Shown here piece by piece: positions 4,120 through 57,500 of a stretch of DNA of 64,000 nucleotides (within the stretch, counting starts at the first letter, position 1; each line of letters opens with the position of its first letter). Below the pieces are notes generated by a model, which was not told the DNA's origin, ran no database searches, and saw only the letters and a program-made list of their open reading frames with translations. A program made the translations under genes and the position numbers. This stretch comes from an uncultured Candidatus Saccharibacteria bacterium (GTDB lineage: Bacteria; Patescibacteriota; CALEFQ01; G965231055). The stretch spans positions 116,711 to 180,710 of the forward strand of contig OZ246411.1 in NCBI GenBank assembly GCA_965231055.1, written 5' to 3'.

Positions 4120-5013
4120 ATGAAAAATATTAAGCTAATATACTATTTCATAAAAAGCTCACTGTTTGGGATCAAGCTTCCAATAGGTGTTTCAATAGAT
4201 GTTACAAATAGATGCAACCTGAGATGCGAACACTGCTACTTCTTTCAACAGGATCATAAAACAGAATTAAGCGACAAAGACCTCCTAAAAAGAATTCGCG
4301 AAATAAAAAAACAGTACCCCTCCATTATTCATGCGTCATGGGTTGGCGGAGAACCTTTGCTAAGAAAAAATATAATTGAGGAAGGATCAAAGCTCTTTCC
4401 TTTCAACATGGTAGTAACCAACGGCTCAATAGAACTACCAAAATGGAAAAATTGCGTATTCAATGTTTCAGTAGACGGCACCAAAGAGTATTACGAAAAA
4501 ATCAGAGGTAACAATATCTACGATAAAGTAAAAAAACACGCAGATCGTGATGATATACATGTAAACATAGCCTGCGTTCTTAACAAGAAGAATTACTATA
4601 CAATAGAACCACTCCTCGAAGAATGGAAAAAGACAAAAATAGGGGGAATAAATTTTGATTTTTATACACCGATAAAGGATATAGAAGAAGATTTATGGAT
4701 CAGCTGGGAAGAGCGAGACAAGATCATCGATAAACTAATTACCCTCAAAGAAAAATATAGAGATTTTATTTTGAATAGCAAATCAATACTGGAAATGATG
4801 AAATCCGATAGCTCAAAAAAAATTACCTCACACTGCCCTCTTCCCAAAACCATACTTTGTTTGGATCCAATGGGCCAAATAAAAACTCCGTGTGTAATAG
4901 GAAGCAAGGCAGATTGTCAAAGATGTGGATGCGTAATTCCTTTTCAAATAACATCAGTCCTAATAAACAAACAAGTGGACTCTTTTCATGTTACCAAAAA
5001 ACTATTTTTGTAA
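4120..5013 (+). CDS. Radical SAM protein with a C-terminal Cys-rich SPASM/twitch-like region
   Basis: CNLRCEHCY (CxxxCxxC) radical-SAM cluster motif near the N-terminus. A C-terminal cluster CPLPKTILC...C...CQRCGC resembles auxiliary Fe-S (SPASM/twitch) domains. Confidence 0.8.
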   Translation: MKNIKLIYYFIKSSLFGIKLPIGVSIDVTNRCNLRCEHCYFFQQDHKTELSDKDLLKRIREIKKQYPSIIHASWVGGEPLLRKNIIEEGSKLFPFNMVVTNGSIELPKWKNCVFNVSVDGTKEYYEKIRGNNIYDKVKKHADRDDIHVNIACVLNKKNYYTIEPLLEEWKKTKIGGINFDFYTPIKDIEEDLWISWEERDKIIDKLITLKEKYRDFILNSKSILEMMKSDSSKKITSHCPLPKTILCLDPMGQIKTPCVIGSKADCQRCGCVIPFQITSVLINKQVDSFHVTKKLFL

Positions 5014-5102: not shown

Positions 5103-6293
5103 ATGGGAGCCGAGCAAATACCACAGATAGATACACAATCAGAGCAGGCACAACTACAAAAAATGCCAGAATCTGTTAAGAACAATAAATTAGAAGTGCC
5201 AGACCATCAAGAAATTGAATATTTGAATTTTACCAGCGACGAAAAAGCCGATGTTCTGCGTAAAATCTCAGAAAAGTTTTCTTCAATTGATAAGGTGGCA
5301 AACGAAGGTCTGATAGATTTCCCGACCACAAAAAAAGAAATTGAAGAATTTATCTTTTTAAACCCCGAACACTTCGGAACCAAAAGACTAGCAGAAGTTG
5401 CCTTGGCAGAAACAGAATTTGCCCCCAAATTGATAAGAGAAATAGCTGACAGAAAAGAGTATAGTCAATTAGAACAAATTTTACAGCAGCATAAAGAAAA
5501 ACCAGTCTTTAAACACTGCGTCGCGCAGATTGAATTGAGTCTAAAAGATGAGGGCATGCAAGAAAGTATACTCATGGCACTATCAGAATCTCTAGCAAAA
5601 GACGACGAAGCGGAAAAAGTTGCTTTTGAAAAATTTTCCGAATTCATGCTGGCAAAACCAGAAAAGGCCTCTAGAGATTTGGCCACTTATTTTGATTTTT
5701 TAGGTATCAGCGAAGTAAATGCTAAAAAATTATTGGACAAAAAAAATCTGCTATTAATTGGAGGAGGAATTGCGCCAATAAAAAATGAGCTACTAGAAAG
5801 AGGCATTGATTGTAGAGTCACAAATATTGAGCCCTTACTAAAAGATAATACAAGGGAAAACTCCGATCAACCCATATCTAAAAACTTCTACGATGTCAGC
5901 GCCGAAGAAATGGGAAAACATGACGAAATATGGTCTGCCAACAACTCCTTGCCAACATACGCCTTCAATCCAGAGCAAGTAAAAGTTTTTTATCAAAAAG
6001 CTCTTGGTGCTATTAATCCAGGTGGCTATTTAAGAGTTATCCCATTTCAAGGTTTTGCAGATTCAATAACGCCATCCATGAGATTAAGCAGACTTCCAAC
6101 TAGCAATGAATCAATTCGACAAGTAGAAGCCCTTCGAAAACGACCCGATCTTTTTGAAGTGGAAGAATTTGAGACACCTCAGCTTAAATCTTTTTTTGGG
6201 AAAAAAAATAAAATGACTGGAGTAAATATCAGAGCCATTGGAACCCAAGAACAAATTAATGCTTTTCTAAAAGACATTTCGGATAAAAAATAG
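5103..6293 (+). CDS. Putative class I SAM-dependent methyltransferase-like protein with an N-terminal acidic domain
   Basis: The C-terminal half has MTase-like motifs: LLLIGGGIAP (motif I-like), RVTNIEP, DEIWSANNSL, INPGGYLRVIP (motif III-like). This is a weak, fold-level call. Confidence 0.5.
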   Translation: MGAEQIPQIDTQSEQAQLQKMPESVKNNKLEVPDHQEIEYLNFTSDEKADVLRKISEKFSSIDKVANEGLIDFPTTKKEIEEFIFLNPEHFGTKRLAEVALAETEFAPKLIREIADRKEYSQLEQILQQHKEKPVFKHCVAQIELSLKDEGMQESILMALSESLAKDDEAEKVAFEKFSEFMLAKPEKASRDLATYFDFLGISEVNAKKLLDKKNLLLIGGGIAPIKNELLERGIDCRVTNIEPLLKDNTRENSDQPISKNFYDVSAEEMGKHDEIWSANNSLPTYAFNPEQVKVFYQKALGAINPGGYLRVIPFQGFADSITPSMRLSRLPTSNESIRQVEALRKRPDLFEVEEFETPQLKSFFGKKNKMTGVNIRAIGTQEQINAFLKDISDKK

Positions 6294-6780: not shown

Positions 6781-7179
6781 ATGAAAGGATTCAATGCGAA
6801 CATCGAAAAAGAAACTTTGGAAAACACCAATTTTCGCAAGGTTCTCTATACTGGCAAGCATAGCCAGCTAGTTCTTATGTCTCTTAAACCAAAGGAGGAA
6901 ATCGGAATGGAGATTCACAAAGAAAATGATCAATTTTTCCGATTTGAGAAAGGCCAAGGCAAATGCATCATAGATGGCAATGAGTACAGCGTAGAAGATG
7001 GCTCTGCGATAGTAGTTCCAGCAGGAGCTGAGCACAACATCATCAACGTCTCTGAAACCGAGGATCTCAAGCTTTACACCATCTACTCCCCCGCCCACCA
7101 CAAAGACGGTATCGTGAGAACTACAAAAGAAGAAGCCGAAGCCAATGACGAGGAGTTTGATGGAAAAACCACAGAATAA
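6781..7179 (+). CDS. Cupin-domain protein
   Basis: 132 aa. Cupin motif 2 PxGxxHxxxN is present (VVPAGAEHNIIN). It is too short and lacks HxH for a confident acireductone dioxygenase call. Confidence 0.65.
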   Translation: MKGFNANIEKETLENTNFRKVLYTGKHSQLVLMSLKPKEEIGMEIHKENDQFFRFEKGQGKCIIDGNEYSVEDGSAIVVPAGAEHNIINVSETEDLKLYTIYSPAHHKDGIVRTTKEEAEANDEEFDGKTTE

Positions 7180-7360: not shown

Positions 7361-7441
7361 ACAGTTTTACCCTTCTGCCAAGCTGTTTCAAATATATCAC
7401 GCTTTTGGCAGATTACAAGCCCATAGCTTATCGTAAATAAA

Positions 7442-7470
7442 AGACCGCGCCATTTCTGGTGCGGTTTTTT
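7442..7470 (+). terminator. Rho-independent terminator (second, downstream of the cupin gene/structured element)
   Basis: accgcgcca-tttc-tggtgcggt stem followed by TTTTTT. Confidence 0.6.
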
Positions 7471-7554: not shown

Positions 7555-7947
7555 TTACAAAATGGATATATTTATTCCGCCATTTTCTTTTATGAAAACT
7601 ATACACGAATTCGGTGTTTCCAAAATATCCTTTGGAGTGTCACCAGATTTAGCAAATAGCTCATTGCCATGTTCACATGCAATAGTTTCAAGAATAGGCT
7701 CTTCAATAGATTCTTCTTGTCTCGAAGGTTTAGCATCAAAAAGCTCTCTCAAATCAGAAACGGGCTCAATGATTTTTTTGACATCGCTAGGTGTAGAGCT
7801 GGGAGAATCATTGATTGGGGGTTTTGTATCAGAACCTCCTTTTGTGAATCTAACCGACAATTCGCTTCCCTGCGAACCACAAACATCAAACTTTTTTATA
7901 TCAGTCACTTTTTTGTCCTCCAGAAATCCTAATGAACGGTTAAACAA
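7555..7947 (-). CDS. Hypothetical protein (130 aa), probably co-transcribed downstream of the MtnA-like gene
   Basis: Hydrophilic, non-repetitive sequence 25 nt downstream of the 7972..9006 gene on the same strand. The overlapping + strand ORFs are Ser/Leu-rich, typical of antisense frames. Confidence 0.4.
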   Translation of the reverse strand: MFNRSLGFLEDKKVTDIKKFDVCGSQGSELSVRFTKGGSDTKPPINDSPSSTPSDVKKIIEPVSDLRELFDAKPSRQEESIEEPILETIACEHGNELFAKSGDTPKDILETPNSCIVFIKENGGINISIL

Positions 7948-7971
7948 ATAATTGTATTTGAATACAAAATA

Positions 7972-9006
7972 CTATATTAAATTATTAGAATCAAGTACTC
8001 CGTTTTCTGTAATAATTTTGGTGATATATTTGGCGGGAGTTACATCGAAGGCGGGATTCATAATCTCAAATGTTTTATCAAATTGATTTGAGTCCAAACA
8101 TCTCCAAAAATCTTCATCAGGTCTATTTTCTATGATTATCTCATCACCGCTTTCAATTTTTCTATCTATGGTTGCATCCACGGCACAAACATAAAAAGGA
8201 ATTTTGTTTTCATGAGCCAAAACCGCCAAAGGATATGTGCCGATTTTGTTTGCCGTATCTCCGTTTTTGGCAATCCTGTCTGCCCCTACAAATATCGCAG
8301 AAATTTTTCCAGATCTTAGTAGTGATCCAGCAACACTGTCTGAAATAACTTGGCATCCGATCCCCACTCGCTTCATCTCCCAAGCAGTAAGTTTCATTCC
8401 TTGAAATTGAGGTCTTGTTTCATCTGCAATCACATCAAATTTTTTACCTCCGGTAAATGCTGAAAACATAGGCGCAGTTGCTGTGCCATACCAAACACTG
8501 GATAGAGAGCCCGCGTTGCAATGAGTGAGGATTGTGGAACCCTCTTTGATCAGCTCTTTCCCATACTCGCCTATTTTCAGATTGTTCTGTACTTCTTGTT
8601 CCAAAATATTTCTAGCCCCTTCTAATAAGACTTTTTTTAAGTCCTTTTCGCTGGAATTTTCTGCAATTTCAAGCATTTTATCCACTCCCCAAGCCAGATT
8701 TACGGCAGTGGGCCTAGTTTTGTTTATCAAAAGTTCTTTGGCTTTTTTTAGATTTTCCAAAATTTCCTCTCTCGCATCAGAAGAATTTAGAGCTGACAAA
8801 TACATTCCTCCAATTCCAGTAGCTCCTATCGCCTGAGCACCTCGCACTTGCATAGTTTTTATTGCTTTTGCCGAATCTTCGAGTGTCAGAAGATCCAAAA
8901 ACTTAAGTTCCCGGGGTAACAATAGTTGATCAATAATCCTCACTTTGTCAGGAAAAATTTCTACAGTTTGAGGTAATTTAGATTTTAATTCGCTTATATC
9001 TTTCAT
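7972..9006 (-). CDS. mtnA: S-methyl-5-thioribose-1-phosphate isomerase / eIF-2B-related aldose-ketose isomerase (MtnA/E2b2 family)
   Basis: 344 aa. The GAQAIGATGIGG, CNAGSLS..GTA and VGADRIAKNGDTANKIGTY motifs are typical of the MtnA/eIF2B-alpha-like family. Confidence 0.8.
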   Translation of the reverse strand: MKDISELKSKLPQTVEIFPDKVRIIDQLLLPRELKFLDLLTLEDSAKAIKTMQVRGAQAIGATGIGGMYLSALNSSDAREEILENLKKAKELLINKTRPTAVNLAWGVDKMLEIAENSSEKDLKKVLLEGARNILEQEVQNNLKIGEYGKELIKEGSTILTHCNAGSLSSVWYGTATAPMFSAFTGGKKFDVIADETRPQFQGMKLTAWEMKRVGIGCQVISDSVAGSLLRSGKISAIFVGADRIAKNGDTANKIGTYPLAVLAHENKIPFYVCAVDATIDRKIESGDEIIIENRPDEDFWRCLDSNQFDKTFEIMNPAFDVTPAKYITKIITENGVLDSNNLI

Positions 9007-9559
9007 ATAATTTATTCATTTTTTGAAATGCATTTTCAAAGGTTTTTCCTGCGACAAAAAATCCATGATTTTTGATGAGAACAAACTCATTCGTGCCTAT
9101 GTTTTGAGAAACTTGCTTGGCAAGCTCGATAGTTCCATATGGTTGCTCTTCCAAAAGACACTGGTCATTAGCTAGCTCCAAATATTTATTGAATGCTGGG
9201 AGGTGACCATGAAAAATAAAATTGTATTCTGGATGGGCTCTATAAATCATGAAATGAGATCTGCTTTCCGAGCTGGGATTTCCGCTTCCTTGAAAAGAGA
9301 CACTATCACCCTCCACAGAAGTAACTTTGGCAAAATCAGATGAAGTTAATTTTTCTATGAGTATTCCAGTTTTTTTAATAACAAATCCGTTTTCAACTCT
9401 TCCGCTAAAATTTCCTCCGTTAAGTTCTATGAATCCTTTTTCTTTGTAATAGTCTCTTAATATTAGAAGTTTTTTTATGGTTTGGCTTTCGAAATCATTG
9501 GGATACCAATCCCCCTTATTTACCGCGTTGAATTTTATTCCCGAATAAACCTCACCCAT
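8978..9559 (-). CDS. Class II aldolase/adducin-family protein (MtnB-like dehydratase or 5-deoxyribulose-1-P aldolase)
   Basis: 193 aa. SSESRSHFMIYRAHPEYNFIFHGH matches the class II aldolase metal-binding region. It overlaps the isomerase gene by 29 nt, consistent with an operon. Confidence 0.75.
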   Translation of the reverse strand: MGEVYSGIKFNAVNKGDWYPNDFESQTIKKLLILRDYYKEKGFIELNGGNFSGRVENGFVIKKTGILIEKLTSSDFAKVTSVEGDSVSFQGSGNPSSESRSHFMIYRAHPEYNFIFHGHLPAFNKYLELANDQCLLEEQPYGTIELAKQVSQNIGTNEFVLIKNHGFFVAGKTFENAFQKMNKLYERYKRIKI

Positions 9560-9562
9560 GGA

Positions 9563-10303
9563 TTATTTGATTAGTGATTCTAAAGCGATAATAGCAGCTT
9601 CTGATTCCTTGGAAACCAATTCACCTTTCTTGGCAATTGCTTGATTGGCATATTTCAAGATTCCTTCTTGAACATTTTTTTCTCCCGAATCATTTACAAC
9701 TAGAAAGATGCATCCTGATTTTATATTTCTCAGCTGCGAAACTAGTACAATCGTTGAGCCTTCCATCTCTTGCGCTATGGCGTTCATCTGACCGAATTTT
9801 GCTTTGAGATTGTTTAGGTTTGGATTGTATAGCCAGTCCACTGAAACTGTAGTGCCTATGTGAAAATCTGACTTACTCTCTTCTGCCGATAGTTTGAGAT
9901 TTTTGAGAATCTCAGGATCAACTATGGCAGGCGTTTTTGATGAAATATATTCGGTAGGCACTCCGTCTCCTCTAATAATTTTATCGGGTATCACCACATC
10001 GCCTATTTTTATATTTGGACTAATGCTTCCGCAAGAACCAACTCTGATAATAGTTTTGACTCCTATATTGGCCATCTCTTCAACCGCTATAGCAGATGAA
10101 GGCCCACCTATTCCAGTTGAAACTATTGCTATTTCTTCGCCCTTGTATGATCCTTTGTAGCTCGTATATTCTCTGTTTTGAGCTACTTTTTGGGGATTTT
10201 CCAAATGATTTATGGCAATCCTCTCTACCCTTGCAGGATCTCCCACTACAATAGCTTTTGGGGCTAAATCGCCATTATCACACAATATATGGGGCTGTTT
10301 CAT
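9563..10303 (-). CDS. Purine nucleoside / 5'-methylthioadenosine phosphorylase (PNP/UDP family 1, DeoD-like)
   Basis: 246 aa with VVGDPARVERIA, VSTGIGGPSSAIAVEEM, IIRVGSCGS and EMEGSTIV motifs, the hexameric nucleoside phosphorylase family. Confidence 0.8.
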   Translation of the reverse strand: MKQPHILCDNGDLAPKAIVVGDPARVERIAINHLENPQKVAQNREYTSYKGSYKGEEIAIVSTGIGGPSSAIAVEEMANIGVKTIIRVGSCGSISPNIKIGDVVIPDKIIRGDGVPTEYISSKTPAIVDPEILKNLKLSAEESKSDFHIGTTVSVDWLYNPNLNNLKAKFGQMNAIAQEMEGSTIVLVSQLRNIKSGCIFLVVNDSGEKNVQEGILKYANQAIAKKGELVSKESEAAIIALESLIK

Positions 10304-10441
10304 GGTTTTGTTTACATCTAATGTTGGTTTAATTATACCATTTATAGATATAAAAATAAATTACATTTTATCAGAAGTACGAGGGCTTTTTTATAGAACT
10401 TGGAAATGTTATAATAAATAAATAACCAATAATAATAAAAA

Positions 10442-10726: not shown

Positions 10727-11620
10727 ATGGAAAATGGAAACTTCACTAGTCAAGAAGAACAAAAGGTAGCTAAAGTAGACCAAGGAAAAAGTGAAAGATT
10801 TAAAAAAACAGAACAAATCTTTGAAAGTTTGGACAAAGTCGTAGACATACAAGATAAACAAGAGCAAGAATCAGCGATGCAAAAAATAATAGACAAAAGA
10901 CTTGCGGAACTGCACGAAGAATCTCCAAAAAAACAAGAGACATTCGGAACAAGAAGTGTTACTGGAGAATTTATCCATCCGGACACAGAAATAATAAAAT
11001 TTTATGGGGGTGATCGCCTAAAACTAAATGACCCGGATGCCTACAAATCATTATTGCAAGCATTCTCTGATTTTCGCAAGGCATGGAAAATAGATACCAA
11101 GAAAACAACAATGCAATCGATAGATAGAGCATTGGGAATATACTTTGGAAACACCTTTTCGAGCAATAGCACCTTAAAAGAAAATATAAAATTTTACTCA
11201 GACCACACCCATTCGGAATCTGACAGCGTTAATTTGAGTGAATTGAAGGGCAAGGGAATCGCTGTGTGTGCTGAAAAAGCTTCTTTAGCACATAACTATC
11301 TAAAATTTTTGGGAATAGATTCAAAACTAGTTTCCTCTCTCAATTGCAGGTTTACTGAAGGAAACAATGACTCTCACGCCTATAACCTAATAAGCACAAA
11401 GAATGGGGAGTTCCTCTATGACCCCTCAAACCCCGTCATAATTCGTGATGCTCAAAATGAAATACTAACAACTAACGCTACAGTATACCCGATTTCCAGA
11501 GAAGATTATGATCATCTATCACAACAAGATGGCAAGCAAGTTAAAGTAGAACATATGAATCAAAAATTTATAGATGGAAAATACCAAAAAGAGGATGGTC
11601 AAGATAGAATTTATGGATAA
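10727..11620 (+). CDS. Transglutaminase-like / papain-fold cysteine protease superfamily protein
   Basis: Cys-His-Asp triad in TGase-core spacing: GKGIAVCAEKASLAHNYLKFLGI (Cys), NDSHAYNLIS (His), FLYDPSNP (Asp). Confidence 0.6.
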   Translation: MENGNFTSQEEQKVAKVDQGKSERFKKTEQIFESLDKVVDIQDKQEQESAMQKIIDKRLAELHEESPKKQETFGTRSVTGEFIHPDTEIIKFYGGDRLKLNDPDAYKSLLQAFSDFRKAWKIDTKKTTMQSIDRALGIYFGNTFSSNSTLKENIKFYSDHTHSESDSVNLSELKGKGIAVCAEKASLAHNYLKFLGIDSKLVSSLNCRFTEGNNDSHAYNLISTKNGEFLYDPSNPVIIRDAQNEILTTNATVYPISREDYDHLSQQDGKQVKVEHMNQKFIDGKYQKEDGQDRIYG

Positions 11621-11628
11621 ATCTAATT

Positions 11629-12150
11629 ATGGACGCAAAAATACCAGCACAAAACTGGATTTCACCTAAAATAGAAATACTTAAATCCCCTATTCAAGGT
11701 ATCGGAATGTTTGCGAAAGAACCAATTAAAAAAAGTGAGCTAGTTTTAATCTGGGGAGGATATGGATACACAGACAAAGCAGGTGCAGAAAAAAAGAAAG
11801 CTGAAGGAAAATTAACAATGCAATGGGACGACGATCTTTTTAGCTTTGAAACCAGAGGAGAAGAAAGCGCATATTATATAAACCATTCTTGTGAACCAAA
11901 TGTATGGATGAGAGATGCTTTTAGACTAGAAACAATGCGAGATATAAAAAAAGGTGAAGAATTGACAGTAGATCACGCCATGTTTAAATCCGAGGTAGAT
12001 TATATTTCCAAATGGAAATGCAACTGCGGAACTCAAAAATGTCGCAAGCAAATTACTGGAACGGACTACAAACTCAGAGAGCTTCAAAAAGCATATGCTG
12101 ATCATTTTTCTCCCTTGATAAATAAAAAAATTGCAGGACTCAAAAAATAA
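11629..12150 (+). CDS. SET-domain protein (putative protein-lysine methyltransferase)
   Basis: INHSCEPN (NHSCxPN SET signature) and Tyr-containing EELTVDHAMF. A post-SET-like CNCGTQKCRK cysteine cluster is also present. Confidence 0.8.
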   Translation: MDAKIPAQNWISPKIEILKSPIQGIGMFAKEPIKKSELVLIWGGYGYTDKAGAEKKKAEGKLTMQWDDDLFSFETRGEESAYYINHSCEPNVWMRDAFRLETMRDIKKGEELTVDHAMFKSEVDYISKWKCNCGTQKCRKQITGTDYKLRELQKAYADHFSPLINKKIAGLKK

Positions 12151-51504: not shown

Positions 51505-54500
51505 CTATTGTATGAGGAAATAATTGAATCCTACATCATCCCCCACTGCTGTATCAAACTTGATAATAAATCCATTTGGAGAATCTTTTTCTATCCAGTA
51601 TCTAGTTGCTGGAGCATAATCATTTTCAAATGTCACAACAACTTTTGTAGTGTCAATTACTGAAAGATTTTCTACTGCAAACTCATCCGATCCTTTTTTA
51701 ACTATTCCAGATCCAGCCGAGCCATTTGGTTTTTCGTATATTTTAAGCTCTTCAGTAGAAATACTTTTTACAAATAGATTTCCGTTCTCATCTATTGACC
51801 ATTTGTTGCTCGCACCAACAATTGATCCTGTGGTGATCATGCCTGAAACAGAGAAATCACCATCTATTGCATTTGCATTTTGATCAATTCCGAGTTTGCT
51901 TTCCACATTTTCAATTCTTGAAATCATATCACCCAGAGAAGTAGTTTGAGCTTTATCTATTTCCAATAAATACACGGGTAATTTACTATAATCAACTGCA
52001 ACCGCATCTCCGTTTGAATTGTAAGAAATCAAATTTGTAAGTCCCAAAGACTCTAACTGACCCACTAAGTAGCCTATACTCTTTCTGCCCGAGTTATTTT
52101 CAAAAAGTTTTGGATCTAGTGAAAATATCTTATTCCAATCGTCACTAAAATCTCCAGACAACTCGCCAATACCAGAGTACACAGCAAGAGAGTTCTCTAT
52201 GCCGGAGATTCTATTTATCAAATCAGAAATATCATTGGAGAACGAAGTGTGTTGAGTTTTGTTTTTCGCTAAAGCGCTGTTAATCGAAACAATATCTCCC
52301 TCGCTATCATCCATTCTGTTATCGATATTTGAGATAAGCTGTCCATTTTTATCTATCATAACTTGTTGATCCTGCATGGCAAGAGTCAAAACTGGAATCA
52401 ATAGATCCTTCGCTACAGCCAAATATCCATCATTTCCTTCACTCACCATTTCTGGGAAAACTACTTGAGCTTCTTGAGCTACGAAACCATAGATAGTTGG
52501 ACCATCAGGATCCTGTTTTCTATTATATTGCCTTACCGTCAAAGCGTTTATAATACCTAAAGCATCAATATCGGCATCAGCAATATTGGTTTTCTTTCTA
52601 CTGTCAGAAGCATCAGCTAAAGAGAATGTTCCTCCGTTATTCTGAATATAACCAACATTGGTTCCATCACCATCATATGCATTTATGTAATAAGTGGTTC
52701 CGGTGCCATCATCTGCTCCTGCCTGTATCCTGATTCCATATCTATTTGCGTTATTTCCGTCGTTGAAAAAGTTAGCAACATAACCAGATGCTGAGTCTGT
52801 TTGCACATCCAAAGGATAACCAGCTGTTCCACTTCCAGAAGGAGCGATTAAAACTTGCCCGTCACCCTCCACAACCATTCTTCTCGTGCCATTTGTAAGA
52901 AAACTGATTGGGTAAGCACCTTGCTGATCCAACAGAAATCCACCACTATTTGTATTTTCTCCGTAAATATAACCTGCATCAGCATACAAACCAGCCATTG
53001 CCTGACTTGCAGCACCAATTTCTAACCAAGTACTTTGACCAGAAAGACCAACATCAGCCGCCGCGAGCGCGCCGGCATTTTGATTTCCGACGACAATACC
53101 TGCCGCAGCATTAGTATCATGATAAACATCAAGTTTTCTACCCGGATCAGAAGTTCCTATGCCCACATTTCCGGTTGGATTGAAGTAAACATCGTCTGCA
53201 GCGGTGATGAGCAAATCCTCTGAAGCATCAGAATTAGCTGAAATTCTTGTACTAGAAGTATCAAACTGAATATAGTCAGATGCAGGAAATATGAGATTTC
53301 CATTGGTATCAAAATAGTTTCCAGTATCTCCCATATAGGTTGTAGCTGTAAGATATGCGTTACCACCCGAATACAATGGATAACTAGCATTTGGATCAAT
53401 TCCTATGCCCACATATCTAAAATCTCCATCACCTGCGTTTGTTACTCTATAAGTAGTACCACCCAAATTCAAAGTTCCATCAGTATCAAAATACACTGAA
53501 GTCGTGCCAAGATATGTAATATTTTCCAAATAAACATTTCCACCATTTACATCAAGTCCGTAATTTCCATAAGTACCACCGATATAAACACCATAATCAG
53601 CTGTACCGCCTATATTCAAAGCCGTTTCTGTGGCATTTGCATGAGCTGATGCAATCTGAATATCAACACCATATAAATTATTTGATGCACCGCTATGAAC
53701 CGCATTGGTTATTGATACTGCTAGGCCCCTTTGAGTATCACTACCATTCATGGCGCCAGCAGTATATCCCATATAAATACCGTCAGAGCTGCTTCCTGCT
53801 GGACCAGTCGCTGTCACATTCACAGCTTTGGACGATGCCAACTGCGTACCAGCAACAACTGCAAGTGGAGTGGTTCCACCTGTTATGTATATACCGTAAT
53901 CAACATCAGCAAAAGCTGAGTTTATATAAGCTCCATAATCAGTTCCAGTTCCATTTTGAGTTTCTATATATGCTCCATAGTTCGATCTGGCTCCCAGTGA
54001 TTTTGCATACAAACCATAATTTGTTCTGCCGAGAGTGCCAGTAACATTCGTAGCGATTGCATCAGCATAAACAGCAACTGTGTTTAGATCCTGATACACC
54101 GCCGAATCGCTAGGGCTATAAACTGCTCCATACATACCCACGAGCGTAGTATCCCTAATCACTGCGGTATCCCAAGCATCAACCGCAAAATATCCACCCA
54201 TCAGCGAAAAAGTTCCGGGGCCAGTTCCCATATCTATAATGGAATCTTCTTCTATGCTAACAAGTCCTTCTACTGCCAATATATAATTATCTTCTGAGTC
54301 AGAAATATTTGATTTAACAACGTTTTGTCCGGAAACACCTATGCTTTTTACTTCTATTCTATGAGCCTCATTTGTGTTTACACGACCCTGAACTCCAGCA
54401 TTATATCCCGTAGATGCATCTTGAATTCTACCATCAACACCAGCAACATAAAGATCGTCAGATTTGGGATCTACATAACCTTGCAATCCGTGTGACCATT

Positions 54501-57500
54501 CAGAAACCGTACTGGCTCCACTCCTATAAACTTCCGAAGCAAAACCCAAAGAATTGGCGCTACCTGTTGATGTCATCACGATTCGCATAGCTGTTGTCCA
54601 ATCTTCCCCCACCCCTGCATTTGCGGTATTTGTTTGTTGCAGAAAAATTGATGCATCCCTTAAAACATCCGTAGAGTCCACAACATGCAGTTTATAAGAC
54701 GGGCTAGTTCCCACACCCAAATCATTTGCTACATAAACATTTCCACTATCAAAATACCCAGCCCAGTTAGTTGCTCCACCAGACGCAGTTGAATAAATAC
54801 CATAATGCGTAGCGGTTCCCGTACCGTTGGCCTGAAAGTATCCACCATAATTTGTGCCCGTTGCGGAATTTGCCCATCCCAATAAAGCACGCCCAGTGGA
54901 ACTAGAAGAGTAGGCATAAACTCCATAAGAAGAATTAGGATTAACACCATTCACAGCGAGATTAGTAGAAATCCTAGCTGCTCCGGTAATATCAAGCGGG
55001 TACGAAGGAGACATAGCAACTCCCAGTCTGCTGTTTGCCTGTATATAACCATCATTGACCTCAGCAACGCCAACCCCCAAACCACCATTTGCAACATAAG
55101 CGTCACCAGAAACATATAATGGATAGGTTGAGTTATGCGCAACATTAATACCAACATATCTAAAATCAGCATCTCTGTCTTTATAAATAGTTGCAACTTC
55201 TTGCATATATAAATCCCCCGAAATATTTACATTTCCACTAGCAAAGTATCCAGCCCAGTTAACCAAACCGCTATCTGCGGTCGCATATATACCATAATTA
55301 ACAGCAGCGCCTTCGGCAACCGATCTAGCATAAACGCCGTAACCCGAAGTCGCAGTTCCAGAACCAACATAGAAATATCCTCCATAGTTTGTACCACCGG
55401 CACCATCAGTAATACTGCTTTTCACACCATAATCATTTCCTGATCCGCCAGCGACTATTAAAAATTCTCCCGCAATATTTGAAACACCACCTCTAGCATA
55501 GCTAGCTATACCATAATTATTACTAGCTCCGGTATTTACACTAAAAGTACCGCCATAAACACTCGTATCAGTATGAGCTCCAAGAGTCACATTTGGAGAA
55601 ACATAAATACCGTCAACTCTAGCCGTGGCATCGTCCCCAACGGTTGTTGAATTGTATACATTTAATGTTCTTGTTTGACTATTGCCAGAATCTGCGACAG
55701 ATGAAATAAAACTAAATGAAGCTCCGTATTGAGTAGCAACTCCGAGGTTAGATGAAGTCGTTAAGAAATAATAACCAGACTCTCCATCCTCTTGAGACAA
55801 AGTAGCTTCTCCATGAATAGCTTGATTCGTGGTAACGCCTCCTTCAGCAGTCACATATAAACCAAAGTTTTCAGTAGCGGCTCCTGAAGCCACAAACCTA
55901 CCACCATAATTAGCATCCGTAGCATCAGCACTCTCTCCGTATACTCCGTAACCATCAGCACCGGCTGTTGTAACTATGCCATATATGCCGTAACCATTTG
56001 CAGATGCTGTAGACACTTCTCCATAAAAACCATAGCCATTGTCTGCTCGATCATTTGTTGCATAAGCTCCATAGGTATTGCCAGCTCCAGTTTTTGTTAT
56101 ATATATTCCATAACCATTATCTTCACCATTAAGAACATTTATACCCCTTGTAGTATCCACATCAATACCAACACCGAGCACCGTAGAAACATAAGCCTCA
56201 CCAGTTATATAGAAAGAATCATTGATATCAAAACGATCTTCCGCATTATTCCATGAAAGATATTTATCAGTAGGATTTGCTTCATTTGAAAAATACAAAT
56301 AACAATTTTCACTTCCGCCGCCAGCTCCACCGTCGTAGTTACAATATATATCTCCATTGCTCATCAGATCACCTGCATCAACCATGCCGGTGACTTTAAC
56401 ATCACCTTCAAACCAACCCGCCCAGACATTGTCAGCATCTTGCGCTTCTCCATAGATACCTATAGCCCAACCGCCATTAACTACGCTACCCCTCGCAATA
56501 CCATAAACACCAATATTTGAATCAGAAGATTCATCTGCAAAACCATATATACCTATATGACGCTCTTCCATAGAACCCAATCCCGTTGCTTCCCCTCTTA
56601 TTGCTATATTATCCCTAGCTGAATAACGAGAGGTATTCAAAACCCTAAGACCAGCATTGTAACTATCATTTATAATCGTGTCAGTATTGAAAAGAATCTC
56701 AGCTCCTATGGCTTGACCAGAGGGAACAGTAAGATCATCTAGCTGAAATCTATACGAGGGAACATCAGTACCGATTCCAAAATTTCCCCCCATAAAAACT
56801 CCTGAATAATTGTTGGTTGCATTGGCTACTTCAGAATATATTCCGTAGTTATTGTCAGAAGCACCATTCACCAAAATATTGATACCATTAATGGTACCGA
56901 GCGCACTATCCATTGCGATATTTATTCCGTATCCGTCTTCATAGGAATTCAAAATATTCAAACTATATCCTGCAATTGGAGTAGTGCCAATACTAAGTAG
57001 TCCCGAACTTATCGCAACATTGTCAGAGTAAGCTGGCGTGGGATAAATATAATCATCTCCAGGATTTGCATCTGTCCAAAGTCCAGCCCCTGCTGGTATA
57101 TCTGTGAGATACGCGACAGTTCCCGAAGCATCCTGAAAAGTGATAGTGTTTCCTGCTCCAGTTGGATCGGTAATAACAAAAGTACTAAAAACATTGTTAT
57201 CAGTAGTACCCTCAAAAACAAATGGAGATCCACCCAAAATTTGCGCACTTGCAAAATTGATATTTCCATCCGCAGTTATATTTCCTATTCCAGCTATGTC
57301 ACCAGTAGTAGAAATATCCCAGTCAGATGAATTGATATAAATAGCATCTCCTCCATCACCAAGAGTGAGTTGTCCCCCAGTCCCCACGGTAAGTGCTCCA
57401 TTCGCAGTAAGATTTGTACCTATTCCCGTGATACTATTTCCACCCATCGTAAGGTTAGCTCCGGTGATATCTATACCATTATTCGCATCTAGATTTCCTG

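What the first reader, a model, noticed from the sequence alone, without database searches (positions are those of the whole stretch)
7555..10303. Compact nucleoside phosphorylase – isomerase – class II aldolase operon (DHAP-shunt-like 5'-dAdo/MTA salvage rather than full methionine salvage)
Three overlapping or adjacent minus-strand genes encode:
- A DeoD/MtnP-family nucleoside phosphorylase.
- A class II aldolase-family protein.
- An MtnA/eIF2B-family sugar-phosphate isomerase.
A fourth small ORF follows.

The remaining methionine-salvage enzymes (enolase-phosphatase, dioxygenase) are not evident. The 132-aa cupin nearby lacks the HxH ARD signature.

These three activities alone are sufficient for the described DHAP shunt: phosphorolysis, then 1-P aldose-ketose isomerisation, then aldol cleavage to DHAP plus acetaldehyde or (methylthio)acetaldehyde. 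That pathway is appropriate for a reduced genome carrying radical-SAM enzymes.

Alternatively, this could be the CPR/archaeal nucleoside-salvage route if a RuBisCO-like protein exists elsewhere.
Basis: partly seen in the sequence, partly recalled or inferred. Interest (0 to 1): 0.55.

Follow-up and report, generated by a model that had tools for sequence, protein, structure and literature searches.

The report
CPR variant of the DHAP shunt
A tiny-genome (Saccharibacteria-like) bacterium carries a conserved three-gene operon that most likely turns the toxic by-products of S-adenosylmethionine enzymes into adenine, a glycolytic intermediate and a small aldehyde, using two enzymes that are not the ones known from this pathway.

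Summary
Three tightly packed minus-strand genes encode a PNP_UDP_1 nucleoside phosphorylase (9563-10303), a class II aldolase (8978-9559) and an MtnA-type sugar-1-phosphate isomerase (7972-9006). A non-conserved small ORF and a terminator hairpin follow.

The same order, including the aldolase/isomerase overlap, recurs in six Saccharibacteria/Patescibacteria loci and one Falkowbacteria locus.

- The aldolase belongs to an uncharacterised ~190-aa class II aldolase clade.
- In 58 non-redundant metagenome loci, that clade sits next to MtnA (27 of 41 loci with enough flank).
- It also sits next to bona fide MTA phosphorylase (12 of 30), and repeatedly next to APRT-like, MtnK-like, SAH hydrolase and alcohol dehydrogenase genes.
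- The clade resembles FucA/DrdA aldolases over its full length, and MtnB only in the N-terminal half.

Two parts differ from the known pathway:
- The phosphorylase is a uridine-phosphorylase/DeoD-like enzyme, not MtnP.
- The aldolase is not an Ald2/DrdA ortholog (28% identity to E. coli Ald2).

Substrate specificity is inferred, not shown. A broader role in ordinary nucleoside ribose breakdown is not excluded. Verdict: a new variant of a known pathway, of moderate interest.

The parts
10332..10340 (-). Promoter-like extended -10 element (TGgTATAAT), about 29 nt upstream of the phosphorylase ATG
   Evidence: Read directly from the sequence. The consensus scan did not list it because the -35 hexamer is weak. 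Function is inferred.
9563..10303 (-). Nucleoside phosphorylase of the NP-I (PNP_UDP_1) superfamily, uridine-phosphorylase/DeoD-like. Proposed 5'-deoxyadenosine/MTA (possibly broad) phosphorylase giving a 5-substituted ribose-1-phosphate.
   Evidence: PF01048, E = 9e-39. Best curated models are uridine phosphorylase (167 bits, cut-off 280) and DeoD (129 bits, cut-off 230); the MTAP model scores 22.8 bits. Best PDB match is 4lnh, E = 1e-37. It is the first gene of the conserved trio in all CPR loci.
8978..9559 (-). Short class II (metal-dependent) aldolase of an uncharacterised clade. Proposed 5-deoxy-/5-methylthio-ribulose-1-phosphate aldolase giving DHAP plus an aldehyde.
   Evidence: PF00596, E = 3e-27. 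No curated NCBIfam cut-off is met. Invariant in the 40-sequence clade alignment: F10, G49, N50, S52, P95, S96, E98, H102, H117, H119, H165, G166; nearly invariant: K9, S97. AlphaFold model pLDDT 93; best Foldseek matches are FucA (TM 0.67-0.73) and DrdA (TM 0.68). Clade context.
7972..9006 (-). MtnA-type 5-substituted ribose-1-phosphate isomerase (aldose-1-P to ketose-1-P)
   Evidence: TIGR00512, 357 bits (cut-off 279). PDB 1t9k, E = 2e-81, and B. subtilis M1Pi 2yrf, E = 6e-71. 40% identity to E. coli DHAP-shunt MtnA, with the THCNAG Cys and G(A/T)DR Asp motifs aligned.
7555..7947 (-). Lineage-specific small ORF (130 aa from TTG; a 117-aa form from the GTG at 7908 has a GGAGG upstream). Function unknown. 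Probably co-transcribed.
   Evidence: No Pfam or NCBIfam match. Absent from all related loci.
7435..7465 (-). Terminator-like hairpin followed by a U-run, ending the transcription unit after ORF4
   Evidence: RNA fold -13.8 kcal/mol, z = -4.6, 0 of 200 shuffles as stable. Sequence.

Best explanation
The operon encodes a three-step, ATP-free 'DHAP shunt' for the adenosyl by-products of SAM-dependent enzymes.

1. The phosphorylase cleaves 5'-deoxyadenosine (from radical-SAM enzymes) and/or 5'-methylthioadenosine with phosphate. This yields adenine and 5-deoxy- or 5-methylthio-ribose-1-phosphate.
2. The MtnA-type isomerase converts that aldose-1-phosphate into the ribulose-1-phosphate.
3. The metal-dependent class II aldolase splits it into dihydroxyacetone phosphate (which enters lower glycolysis) and acetaldehyde or 2-(methylthio)acetaldehyde.

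What is shown: the gene families, the conserved operon, the intact catalytic motifs, and the SAM-salvage context of the aldolase clade. What is inferred: the substrates of all three enzymes, and in particular that the uridine-phosphorylase/DeoD-like enzyme has taken over the role of MtnP in CPR bacteria.
For: **1. Conserved operon.** PNP-aldolase-isomerase occurs in the same order, with the same overlap, in Saccharibacteria/Patescibacteria loci L002-L007 and in Falkowbacteria L014.

**2. Isomerase.** It passes the MtnA equivalog cut-off and fails the R15P isomerase cut-off. It is 40% identical to the experimentally studied E. coli DHAP-shunt MtnA (PMC10986504).

**3. Link between the aldolase clade and MtnA.**
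- An isomerase lies immediately upstream in 19 of 41 non-redundant metagenome loci with enough flank, and somewhere in the locus in 27 of 41.
- Two independent aldolase-isomerase fusions exist, in both domain orders: P0013 and P0054.

**4. Link between the same clade and SAM by-product salvage.**
- MTAP-like genes occur in 12 of 30 loci, always together with MtnA. Of the three I scored, L017 (302.6 bits) and L070 (299.4 bits) pass the MTAP cut-off of 274.85; L049 (255.4 bits) falls just below it.
- An APRT-like Pribosyltran gene lies between the MTAP-like gene and the isomerase in L067 and L072; homologues of it occur in 4 loci in all.
- An APH-family (MtnK-like) kinase occurs in 3 loci.
- L017 reads MtnA-aldolase-MTAP-PfkB kinase-adenosylhomocysteinase.
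- A Zn alcohol dehydrogenase, which could reduce the aldehyde product, occurs in 8 loci.

**5. Aldolase, not dehydratase.**
- All FucA phosphate, zinc and base motifs are invariant or nearly so in the clade (GN.S, PSSE, HxH, NHG).
- The profile hits FucA and DrdA over full length.
- The only MtnB-like chain listed (2irp) aligns over the N-terminal half only.
- The top 50 Foldseek matches are led by FucA, with DrdA at ranks 22 and 24 and 2irp at 31 and 33.

**6. Sources of substrate nearby.**
- A radical-SAM gene lies at 4120-5013 in the window.
- RlmN lies divergently next to the operon in L005; an ORF of the same size and position is present in L006.
- A SAM methyltransferase lies next to it in L003.
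- A spermidine-synthase-like gene lies 4.7 kb away in L007.

**7. Precedent.** Phosphorylase/kinase-isomerase-class II aldolase clusters are an established 5-deoxyribose/MTA salvage route (PMC6079011, PMC10986504).
Against: - The phosphorylase is not an MtnP. Its closest non-CPR relatives (38-44% identity) sit with nucleoside transporters, a nucleoside hydrolase, a ribokinase-like kinase or a nicotinamidase. That points to ordinary ribonucleosides.
- The N-terminal His that binds the ribose 5'-OH in E. coli PNP and UP is kept in the operon-linked enzymes (reference sequences verified).
- None of the 80 metagenome loci pairs this aldolase clade with such a phosphorylase. The CPR arrangement therefore has no characterised counterpart.
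- The aldolase is far from both characterised DHAP-shunt aldolases: 28% identity over 152 aa to E. coli Ald2, and 70 bits to DrdA against at least 168 bits for the clade members listed.
- It lacks the FucA Tyr113 loop and the FucA C-terminal tail.
- One clade member (P0034) is fused to a HAD phosphatase whose best match is ribulose-1,5-bisphosphate 5-phosphatase (134 bits, below the 330 cut-off). That hints at ribulose-1-phosphate as a substrate for at least some members.
- No enzyme activity was measured.
Confidence: 0.68

Rival explanations
1. General ribonucleoside catabolism without ATP, the pentose phosphate pathway or RuBisCO. A broad-specificity phosphorylase makes ribose-1-phosphate, the MtnA-like enzyme isomerises it to ribulose-1-phosphate, and the aldolase yields DHAP plus glycolaldehyde. 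This would be the main role, or a second role of promiscuous enzymes.
For: - Relatives of the phosphorylase are embedded in nucleoside uptake and hydrolysis loci.
- The 5'-OH-binding His is conserved.
- An aldolase-HAD fusion (P0034) has a best hit to RuBP 5-phosphatase; that enzyme feeds a ribulose-1-P aldolase in haloarchaea (PMC9700705).
- The clade is enriched in CPR and DPANN lineages, which are thought to scavenge nucleosides.
- FucA-type aldolases accept glycolaldehyde (PMC9700705).
Against: - Outside CPR, the clade's partners are MTAP-like, APRT-like, MtnK-like and AhcY genes, not general nucleoside or pentose enzymes.
- The isomerase is a standard MtnA by curated score.
- I found no report of ribose-1-P isomerase activity feeding an aldolase.
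- The HAD hit is far below its cut-off and is a single case on a 1.7-kb contig.
Confidence: 0.17
2. The start of classical methionine salvage. The aldolase-family protein would be an MtnB dehydratase, with MtnC/MtnD/transaminase encoded elsewhere.
For: - MtnA-MtnB adjacency is common in methionine salvage clusters (established knowledge).
- The clade shares the N-terminal half motifs with MtnB models (45.7 bits).
- A HAD gene follows the aldolase in L046, and a HAD domain is fused to it in P0034.
Against: - The MtnB equivalog cut-off is missed by a wide margin and only the N-terminal half aligns.
- No chain named as an MtnB dehydratase is among the profile's PDB hits at E <= 0.01.
- The C-terminal half has the aldolase-type 'PYGT.EL' motif.
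- The fused HAD does not hit enolase-phosphatase models.
- No ARD, MtnC or MtnK was found among the window genes scanned or among the recurrent neighbours I annotated in the metagenome loci.
- An O2-dependent pathway is unlikely in an 844-kb genome of this type (inference).
Confidence: 0.05
3. The CPR/archaeal pentose bisphosphate (RuBisCO form III) nucleoside route, with the IF-2B protein acting as a ribose-1,5-bisphosphate isomerase.
Against: - The isomerase fails the R15P isomerase model (187 bits, cut-off 314) and passes the MtnA model.
- PDB R15P isomerases score E = 1e-33 against E = 1e-81 for MtnA.
- No RuBisCO, AMP phosphorylase or ribose-1-P kinase was found among the window genes scanned.
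- An aldolase has no place in that route.
Confidence: 0.02
4. A biosynthetic or other use of the 5-deoxy-ketose-phosphate. For example, it could feed a 6-deoxy-5-ketofructose-1-P-like precursor or a deoxysugar product rather than simple disposal.
For: - In 7 archaeal-type loci a DhnA/LsrF-like class I aldolase travels with the cluster, and a Zn dehydrogenase does so in 8.
- Such fates have been proposed for M. jannaschii and shown in Synechococcus (PMC6079011 introduction; PMC8102628).
Against: These extra genes are absent from the window and from all CPR loci. The CPR operon is just the three shunt steps.
Confidence: 0.05

Closest known systems
DHAP shunt of Rhodospirillum rubrum / R. palustris type (MtnP - MtnA - Ald2), as summarised in PMC10986504 and PMC5893883
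   Same: Same three chemical steps: phosphorolysis, 1-phosphate aldose-ketose isomerisation, class II aldol cleavage to DHAP. Same MtnA family. No ATP needed. Genes clustered.
   Different: The phosphorylase is a uridine-phosphorylase/DeoD-like NP-I enzyme instead of an MtnP. The aldolase belongs to a different, shorter clade: an N-terminal YxGxKF strand, no Tyr113 loop, no C-terminal tail.
E. coli ExPEC DHAP shunt (Pfs + MtnK - MtnA - Ald2), fetched here from E. coli Nissle 1917 (L097)
   Same: MtnA is 40% identical. The class II aldolase step is the same.
   Different: E. coli uses a nucleosidase plus a kinase. Its Ald2 is a near-copy of FucA (E = 1e-80) and only 28% identical over 152 aa to the window aldolase.
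Bacillus thuringiensis 5-deoxyribose salvage DrdK-DrdI-DrdA (PMC6079011; PDB 6btd/6btg)
   Same: The same logic. That paper also predicted phosphorylase-containing variants of the cluster. DrdA aligns over full length with the clade profile (E = 2e-18).
   Different: DrdA scores 70 bits on the clade profile, against at least 168 bits for the clade members listed. The phosphorylase variants described there are MTAP homologues.
Non-carboxylating pentose bisphosphate pathway of haloarchaea (RuBP 5-phosphatase + ribulose-1-P aldolase; PMC9700705)
   Same: It ends with a FucA-like class II aldolase that cleaves a ribulose-1-phosphate to DHAP. One clade member is fused to a HAD phosphatase most similar to the RuBP phosphatase.
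   Different: That pathway needs a ribose-1-P kinase and an R15P isomerase. The window isomerase is MtnA-type, and the window aldolase scores 46.9 bits against a cut-off of 300 on the Ru1P aldolase model.

Membership tests
DHAP shunt (SAM by-product salvage) | MtnA-type 5-methylthio/5-deoxy-ribose-1-P isomerase | tested here: met
   TIGR00512, 357.3 bits (cut-off 279). 40% identity to E. coli DHAP-shunt MtnA, with the Cys and Asp motifs aligned.
DHAP shunt (SAM by-product salvage) | Entry enzyme is MtnP (MTA/5'-dAdo phosphorylase) or MtnN plus MtnK | tested here: not met
   The MTAP model TIGR01694 scores 22.8 bits (cut-off 274.85). The best models are uridine phosphorylase and DeoD, both below cut-off. 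A different NP-I phosphorylase occupies the position.
DHAP shunt (SAM by-product salvage) | Class II aldolase orthologous to Ald2 or DrdA | tested here: not met
   28% identity over 152 aa to E. coli Ald2. DrdA 6btd scores 70 bits on the clade profile; the clade members listed score 168-243 bits. The fold and the metal, phosphate and base residues are conserved.
DHAP shunt (SAM by-product salvage) | Genes clustered with each other and with SAM by-product salvage genes | tested here: met
   The trio is conserved in 7 CPR loci. The aldolase clade is clustered with MtnA, MTAP-like, APRT-like, MtnK-like and AhcY genes in metagenome loci.
DHAP shunt (SAM by-product salvage) | Activity on 5'-deoxyadenosine/MTA-derived sugars, yielding DHAP plus acetaldehyde or (methylthio)acetaldehyde | not testable with these tools
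   Needs enzyme assays.
Methionine salvage MtnB dehydratase | Meets the MtnB equivalog model, with the MtnB-type C-terminal half | tested here: not met
   TIGR03328, 45.7 bits (cut-off 137), N-terminal half only. The MtnB-like chain 2irp aligns over positions 20-127 only, and no chain named as an MtnB dehydratase is among the profile hits.
Methionine salvage pathway (complete) | MtnC/MtnW-X, MtnD (ARD) and a transaminase present | tested here: inconclusive
   None found among the window genes scanned or in the flanks of related loci. The rest of the 844-kb genome could not be read.
Uridine phosphorylase (Udp) | Udp equivalog score, and uracil-binding Gln166/Arg168 with the Udp-specific insertion | tested here: not met
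   TIGR01718, 167 bits (cut-off 280). The Gln166/Arg168 segment is deleted or replaced in alignments to V. cholerae and E. coli UP.
DeoD-type purine nucleoside phosphorylase | DeoD equivalog score, and a conserved catalytic Asp204 | tested here: not met
   TIGR00107, 115 bits (cut-off 232). As aligned, DeoD Asp204 faces Asn in most operon-linked homologues (Asp in L014), and the neighbouring position varies (D/R/A/K). The local register is uncertain by one residue. No conserved purine signature.
Ribose-1,5-bisphosphate isomerase / RuBisCO nucleoside pathway | e2b2-type isomerase plus form III RuBisCO | tested here: not met
   TIGR00511, 187 bits (cut-off 314). No RuBisCO among the window genes scanned.
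Haloarchaeal ribulose-1-phosphate aldolase | NF053831 equivalog score | tested here: not met
   46.9 bits (cut-off 300).

The most novel reading that the evidence does not exclude
In CPR bacteria the operon is a dual-purpose, ATP-free pentose-1-phosphate shunt. A broad-specificity phosphorylase would feed ordinary ribose-1-phosphate, as well as 5-deoxy- and 5-methylthio-ribose-1-P, to a promiscuous MtnA and to a new type of class II aldolase. Scavenged nucleosides would then be converted directly into DHAP plus glycolaldehyde. That would be a third solution to nucleoside-ribose catabolism in ultra-small cells, beside the pentose phosphate pathway and the RuBisCO/pentose-bisphosphate routes.
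Probability: 0.2. Interest if true: 0.75.

Novelty: new variant of a known kind. Interest (0 to 1): 0.42.

Why it matters
All cells that use SAM must remove 5'-deoxyadenosine and MTA. How organisms with ultra-small genomes (CPR) do this is not documented in the papers I could search.

The evidence here points to a previously unnamed clade of class II aldolases as the shunt aldolase. The clade is widespread in DPANN, Bathyarchaeia, Heimdallarchaeia, CPR, Bacteroidales and other uncultured lineages. All members I saw are annotated only as 'class II aldolase/adducin family protein'.

It also indicates that CPR bacteria replaced the dedicated MTA phosphorylase with a uridine-phosphorylase/DeoD-like enzyme.

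If confirmed, this would:
- give a function to a large unannotated protein family;
- improve metabolic reconstructions of episymbiotic bacteria;
- raise the testable possibility that the same three enzymes also harvest carbon from scavenged nucleosides.

Tried and rejected
- **Genome scans with broad aldolase alignments (A1, A2).** Both failed because no stretch was conserved enough. The 3-sequence alignment found only two Saccharibacteria relatives and not the source genome itself. The rest of the 844-kb genome therefore could not be searched for pfs, mtnP, speE, deoB or RuBisCO.\n- **Reading phosphorylase specificity from active-site residues.** This was inconclusive. The UP Gln/Arg motif is absent, no conserved DeoD-type Asp is present, and the 5'-OH His is kept in both operon-linked and transporter-linked homologues.\n- **Context of the aldolase-HAD fusion P0034.** The contig is only 1.7 kb, so there is none.\n- **Rfam.** No riboswitch or other RNA family anywhere in the window. 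There are no tRNAs either.\n- **The consensus promoter/terminator scan.** It was at background level and missed both the extended -10 element and the bulged terminator, which I read by eye and by folding.\n- **The cupin at 6781-7179 as an ARD or a methylsulfurylase partner.** Rejected: Cupin_2 only, opposite strand, not conserved in relatives.\n- **ORF4 as a fourth pathway component.** Rejected as a conserved part.\n- **Literature.** The key distribution paper (North et al. 2020, Mol Microbiol) is not held. I found no paper describing this operon in CPR, or a ribose-1-P to ribulose-1-P to aldolase route.

Full report
**What is in the sequence**

Between 7555 and 10303 the minus strand carries four consecutive ORFs.

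- 9563-10303 (246 aa) is a PNP_UDP_1 phosphorylase (E = 9e-39).
- 8978-9559 (193 aa) is a class II aldolase (E = 3e-27).
- 7972-9006 (344 aa) is an IF-2B/MtnA-family protein (E = 1e-79).
- The phosphorylase and aldolase genes are 3 nt apart. The aldolase and isomerase genes overlap by 29 nt.
- An extended -10 element (TGgTATAAT, 10332-10340) lies about 29 nt upstream of the first ATG.
- After the isomerase comes a 130-aa ORF. A 117-aa form from the GTG at 7908 has a GGAGG upstream, and NCBI calls a 117-aa protein. It has no family match.
- A bulged hairpin plus U-run follows at 7435-7465 (-13.8 kcal/mol, z = -4.6).

The four ORFs therefore look like one transcription unit. No Rfam family, including SAM or SAH riboswitches, is present in the window.

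**Source and surroundings**

The exact proteins occur on an NCBI contig of 843,892 bp and in Logan assemblies. The closest named genomes that carry the same operon are a Candidatus Saccharibacteria chromosome (OZ246404.1) and Patescibacteria MAGs.

The genes scanned in the 64-kb window are mostly housekeeping: RNase J, TrpRS/TyrRS-family synthetase, dUTPase, RecA, FtsK, iPGM, Mur ligase, UvrB, Pol I and others. There is a radical-SAM gene at 4120-5013. No RuBisCO, mtnC, mtnD or mtnK was found.

**Conservation**

The order phosphorylase-aldolase-isomerase, including the aldolase/isomerase overlap, is kept in L002-L007. Identities measured for L002-L006 are about 52-54% (aldolase), 58-62% (phosphorylase) and 61-64% (isomerase). 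The L007 phosphorylase is 54% identical. The same order is kept in a Falkowbacteria contig, L014.

ORF4 and the neighbouring cupin are found only in the source organism.

In four relatives (L002, L003, L005, L007) the trio is followed by annotated znuC/znuB-like ABC genes. In L007 it is also preceded by znuA. The RlmN radical-SAM methyltransferase lies divergently upstream in L005; an ORF of the same size and position is present in L006, and a radical-SAM gene lies two genes away in L002. A SAM methyltransferase lies upstream in L003. A spermidine-synthase-like gene lies 4.7 kb away in L007.

**The isomerase**

- It passes the curated MtnA cut-offs (TIGR00512, 357 bits against 279) and fails the ribose-1,5-bisphosphate isomerase model (187 bits against 314).
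- Its best solved relatives are T. maritima, P. horikoshii and B. subtilis methylthioribose-1-P isomerases (E = 1e-81 to 1e-71). R15P isomerases score E = 1e-33.
- I fetched the experimentally studied E. coli DHAP-shunt cluster from strain Nissle 1917 (mtnK-mtnA-ald2 next to yjhU; PMC12632272).
- The window isomerase is 40% identical to that MtnA, with the THCNAG and G(A/T)DR motifs aligned.

**The aldolase-family protein**

It meets no curated equivalog model. The best matches are archaeal 'aldolase' PRK08333 (70 bits), PRK08660, FucA-type models, Ru1P aldolase (47 bits) and MtnB (46 bits, N-terminal half only).

An exhaustive HMMER search found 194 representative clusters with E < 1e-10. None outside its own cluster is more than 36-45% identical. 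Forty of them align into a well-defined clade of about 190 aa.

- Invariant residues: F10, G49, N50, S52, G91, P95, S96, E98, H102, H117, H119, G142, H165, G166.
- Nearly invariant residues: K9, R54, G58, I61, V79, S97, Y106, Y141, G171.
- These include the counterparts of the FucA phosphate site (GN.S), Glu73 (PSSE), the HxH pair and the third His (NHG).
- Relative to FucA, the clade has an extra N-terminal 'YxGxKF' strand.
- It lacks about 12 residues that contain FucA Tyr113, and it lacks the C-terminal tail.

All 40 members miss every NCBIfam cut-off. The public names I saw are only 'class II aldolase/adducin family protein' or generic FucA/AraD labels. Named sources include DPANN archaea, Bathyarchaeia, Heimdallarchaeia, Nitrososphaerota, Patescibacteria, Bacteroidales, Verrucomicrobiia and Neomarinimicrobiota.

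**Aldolase or dehydratase?**

- The clade profile aligns over full length with S. pneumoniae and E. coli FucA (E = 1e-24 to 1e-22) and with B. thuringiensis DrdA (E = 2e-18).
- The MtnB-like Aquifex protein aligns only over the N-terminal half.
- No chain named as an MtnB dehydratase is among the hits at E <= 0.01.
- The AlphaFold model (pLDDT 93) is closest to FucA (TM 0.67-0.73) and DrdA (TM 0.68).
- The region before the third His carries the aldolase-type 'PYGT.EL' motif.

I conclude that it is an aldolase. It is not an ortholog of the two characterised shunt aldolases.

- E. coli Ald2 is essentially a FucA paralog (E = 1e-80 to FucA).
- Ald2 shares only 28% identity over 152 residues with the window protein.
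- DrdA scores 70 bits on the clade profile, while the clade members listed score 168-243 bits.

**What the clade does, from context**

Two representative proteins are aldolase-MtnA fusions, in opposite domain orders (P0013, P0054). A metagenome scan with a clade alignment returned 80 loci, which reduce to 58 clusters at 90% aldolase identity.

- Of 41 with at least 1.1 kb upstream, 19 have an MtnA-type gene immediately upstream on the same strand, and 27 have one somewhere in the locus.
- Of 30 with enough flank on both sides, 12 also carry an MTAP-like phosphorylase, always together with MtnA.
- Two of the three MTAP-like genes I scored pass the MTAP equivalog cut-off of 274.85 (302.6 and 299.4 bits). 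The third is just below (255.4 bits).

Other recurrent neighbours:

- an APRT-like phosphoribosyltransferase, lying between the MTAP-like gene and MtnA in L067 and L072 (homologues in 4 loci);
- an APH-family kinase, the family of MtnK (3 loci);
- adenosylhomocysteinase plus a PfkB kinase (L017 reads MtnA-aldolase-MTAP-kinase-AhcY);
- a Zn alcohol dehydrogenase (8 loci);
- a DhnA/LsrF-like class I aldolase (7 loci).

This is the neighbourhood expected for recycling the adenosyl by-products of SAM: adenine to AMP, the sugar to DHAP, and the aldehyde to an alcohol. It matches the published MtnP-MtnA-Ald2 architecture (PMC6079011; PMC10986504). None of the 80 loci contains the uridine-phosphorylase/DeoD-like enzyme.

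**The phosphorylase**

This is the weak point of the interpretation.

- It is an NP-I enzyme, closest to 'uridine phosphorylase' 4lnh and to Vibrio and E. coli Udp (E = 1e-37 to 1e-32), and then to DeoD-type PNPs.
- It is below all curated cut-offs and far from MTAP (22.8 bits).
- It lacks the Udp-specific insertion with Gln166/Arg168.
- As aligned, DeoD Asp204 faces Asn in most operon-linked homologues, and the neighbouring position varies (D/R/A/K). The local register is uncertain by one residue. The E. coli reference sequences were verified against PDB.
- The N-terminal His that contacts the ribose 5'-OH in E. coli PNP and UP (established structural knowledge) is kept.
- Homologues at 38-44% identity lie with a Bmp/ABC nucleoside-type transporter, with an ECF transporter plus a nucleoside hydrolase and a PfkB kinase, or with an ECF transporter plus an isochorismatase-family (nicotinamidase-type) gene. 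They are ordinary nucleoside phosphorylases.

Base and 5' specificity therefore cannot be called. The most economical reading is that CPR lineages displaced MTAP with a broad NP-I phosphorylase at the head of the same operon. Hexameric PNP-like enzymes that accept MTA are known in Sulfolobus (PDB 1jds is among the hits, E = 1e-28).

**Rivals**

- A general 'ribose-1-P to ribulose-1-P to DHAP + glycolaldehyde' route fits the phosphorylase's relatives. It also fits one aldolase-HAD fusion whose HAD domain is most similar to haloarchaeal RuBP 5-phosphatase (134 bits, cut-off 330; PMC9700705). It is contradicted by the clade's MTAP/APRT/AhcY context. I found no precedent for it. I give it 0.17 as the main role. 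It remains the most novel reading not excluded.
- Classical methionine salvage (MtnB): 0.05.
- The RuBisCO route: 0.02.
- A biosynthetic fate of the ketose phosphate: 0.05.

**Verdict**

This is a new variant of a known pathway. The chemistry and the MtnA step are standard. The entry phosphorylase and the aldolase are non-orthologous to the characterised ones, and the aldolase clade is large and unannotated. All substrate assignments are inferences from homology and gene context. Interest is moderate (0.42).

Noticed in passing
L007:4892-9808; also L002, L003 and L005 downstream of the trio: In related CPR genomes the three-gene operon sits inside or next to a Zn/Mn ABC uptake cluster: znuA - trio - znuC - znuB in L007, and trio - znuC - znuB in the others. 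The aldolase is metal-dependent, so co-regulation with metal supply is conceivable. The window itself lacks this arrangement.
   Followed up: partly
P0034 (contig L015:133-1422); L046:3274-3885: One member of the aldolase clade is fused to a HAD phosphatase. That domain's best NCBIfam hit is haloarchaeal ribulose-1,5-bisphosphate 5-phosphatase (134 bits, below the 330 cut-off). In L046 a separate HAD gene follows the aldolase. This hints that some members may see ribulose-1-phosphate.
   Followed up: partly
L032:2216-4045, L036:3117-4957 and homologues in further metagenome loci (7 loci for the class I aldolase, 8 for the dehydrogenase): A DhnA-type class I aldolase and a Zn-dependent dehydrogenase recur in the archaeal-type clusters; in L032 and L036 they lie between MtnA and the class II aldolase. 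The class I aldolase passes the LsrF-like PRK08227 cut-off (362 bits against 297) and also resembles ADH synthase. This may be an extended or alternative fate of the 5-deoxy-ketose phosphate.
   Followed up: partly
window 7950-7975 (minus strand, between the isomerase stop and ORF4): An AT-rich inverted repeat, TTGTATT-ca-AATACAA, lies in the 24-nt gap. It could be chance in AT-rich DNA or a small operator or attenuator.
   Followed up: no
window 51505-58758 (-): A 2417-aa ORF with a locally higher GC content (0.40-0.43 against about 0.37). It was not annotated here. Giant surface proteins are common in CPR bacteria.
   Followed up: no
window 11629-12150 (+): A 173-aa SET-domain protein (PF00856, E = 9e-14) in a CPR-like bacterium. 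It is followed by a 489-aa polytopic membrane protein with no family match on record.
   Followed up: no
window 4120-5013 (+): A 297-aa radical-SAM protein that meets no curated family. Its best hit is the PTO1314 family (63 bits, cut-off 306). It is a local source of 5'-deoxyadenosine of unknown function, three genes from the operon.
   Followed up: partly
window 5103-6293 (+) and 10727-11620 (+): A 396-aa protein with no family match, and a 297-aa protein with a sub-threshold transglutaminase-core hit, flank the region. Neither has a tblastn match (E <= 1e-5) in the related loci L002-L006.
   Followed up: no
window 1-64000: No tRNA gene and no Rfam family anywhere in 64 kb. Cumulative GC skew falls steadily across the window.
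   Followed up: no
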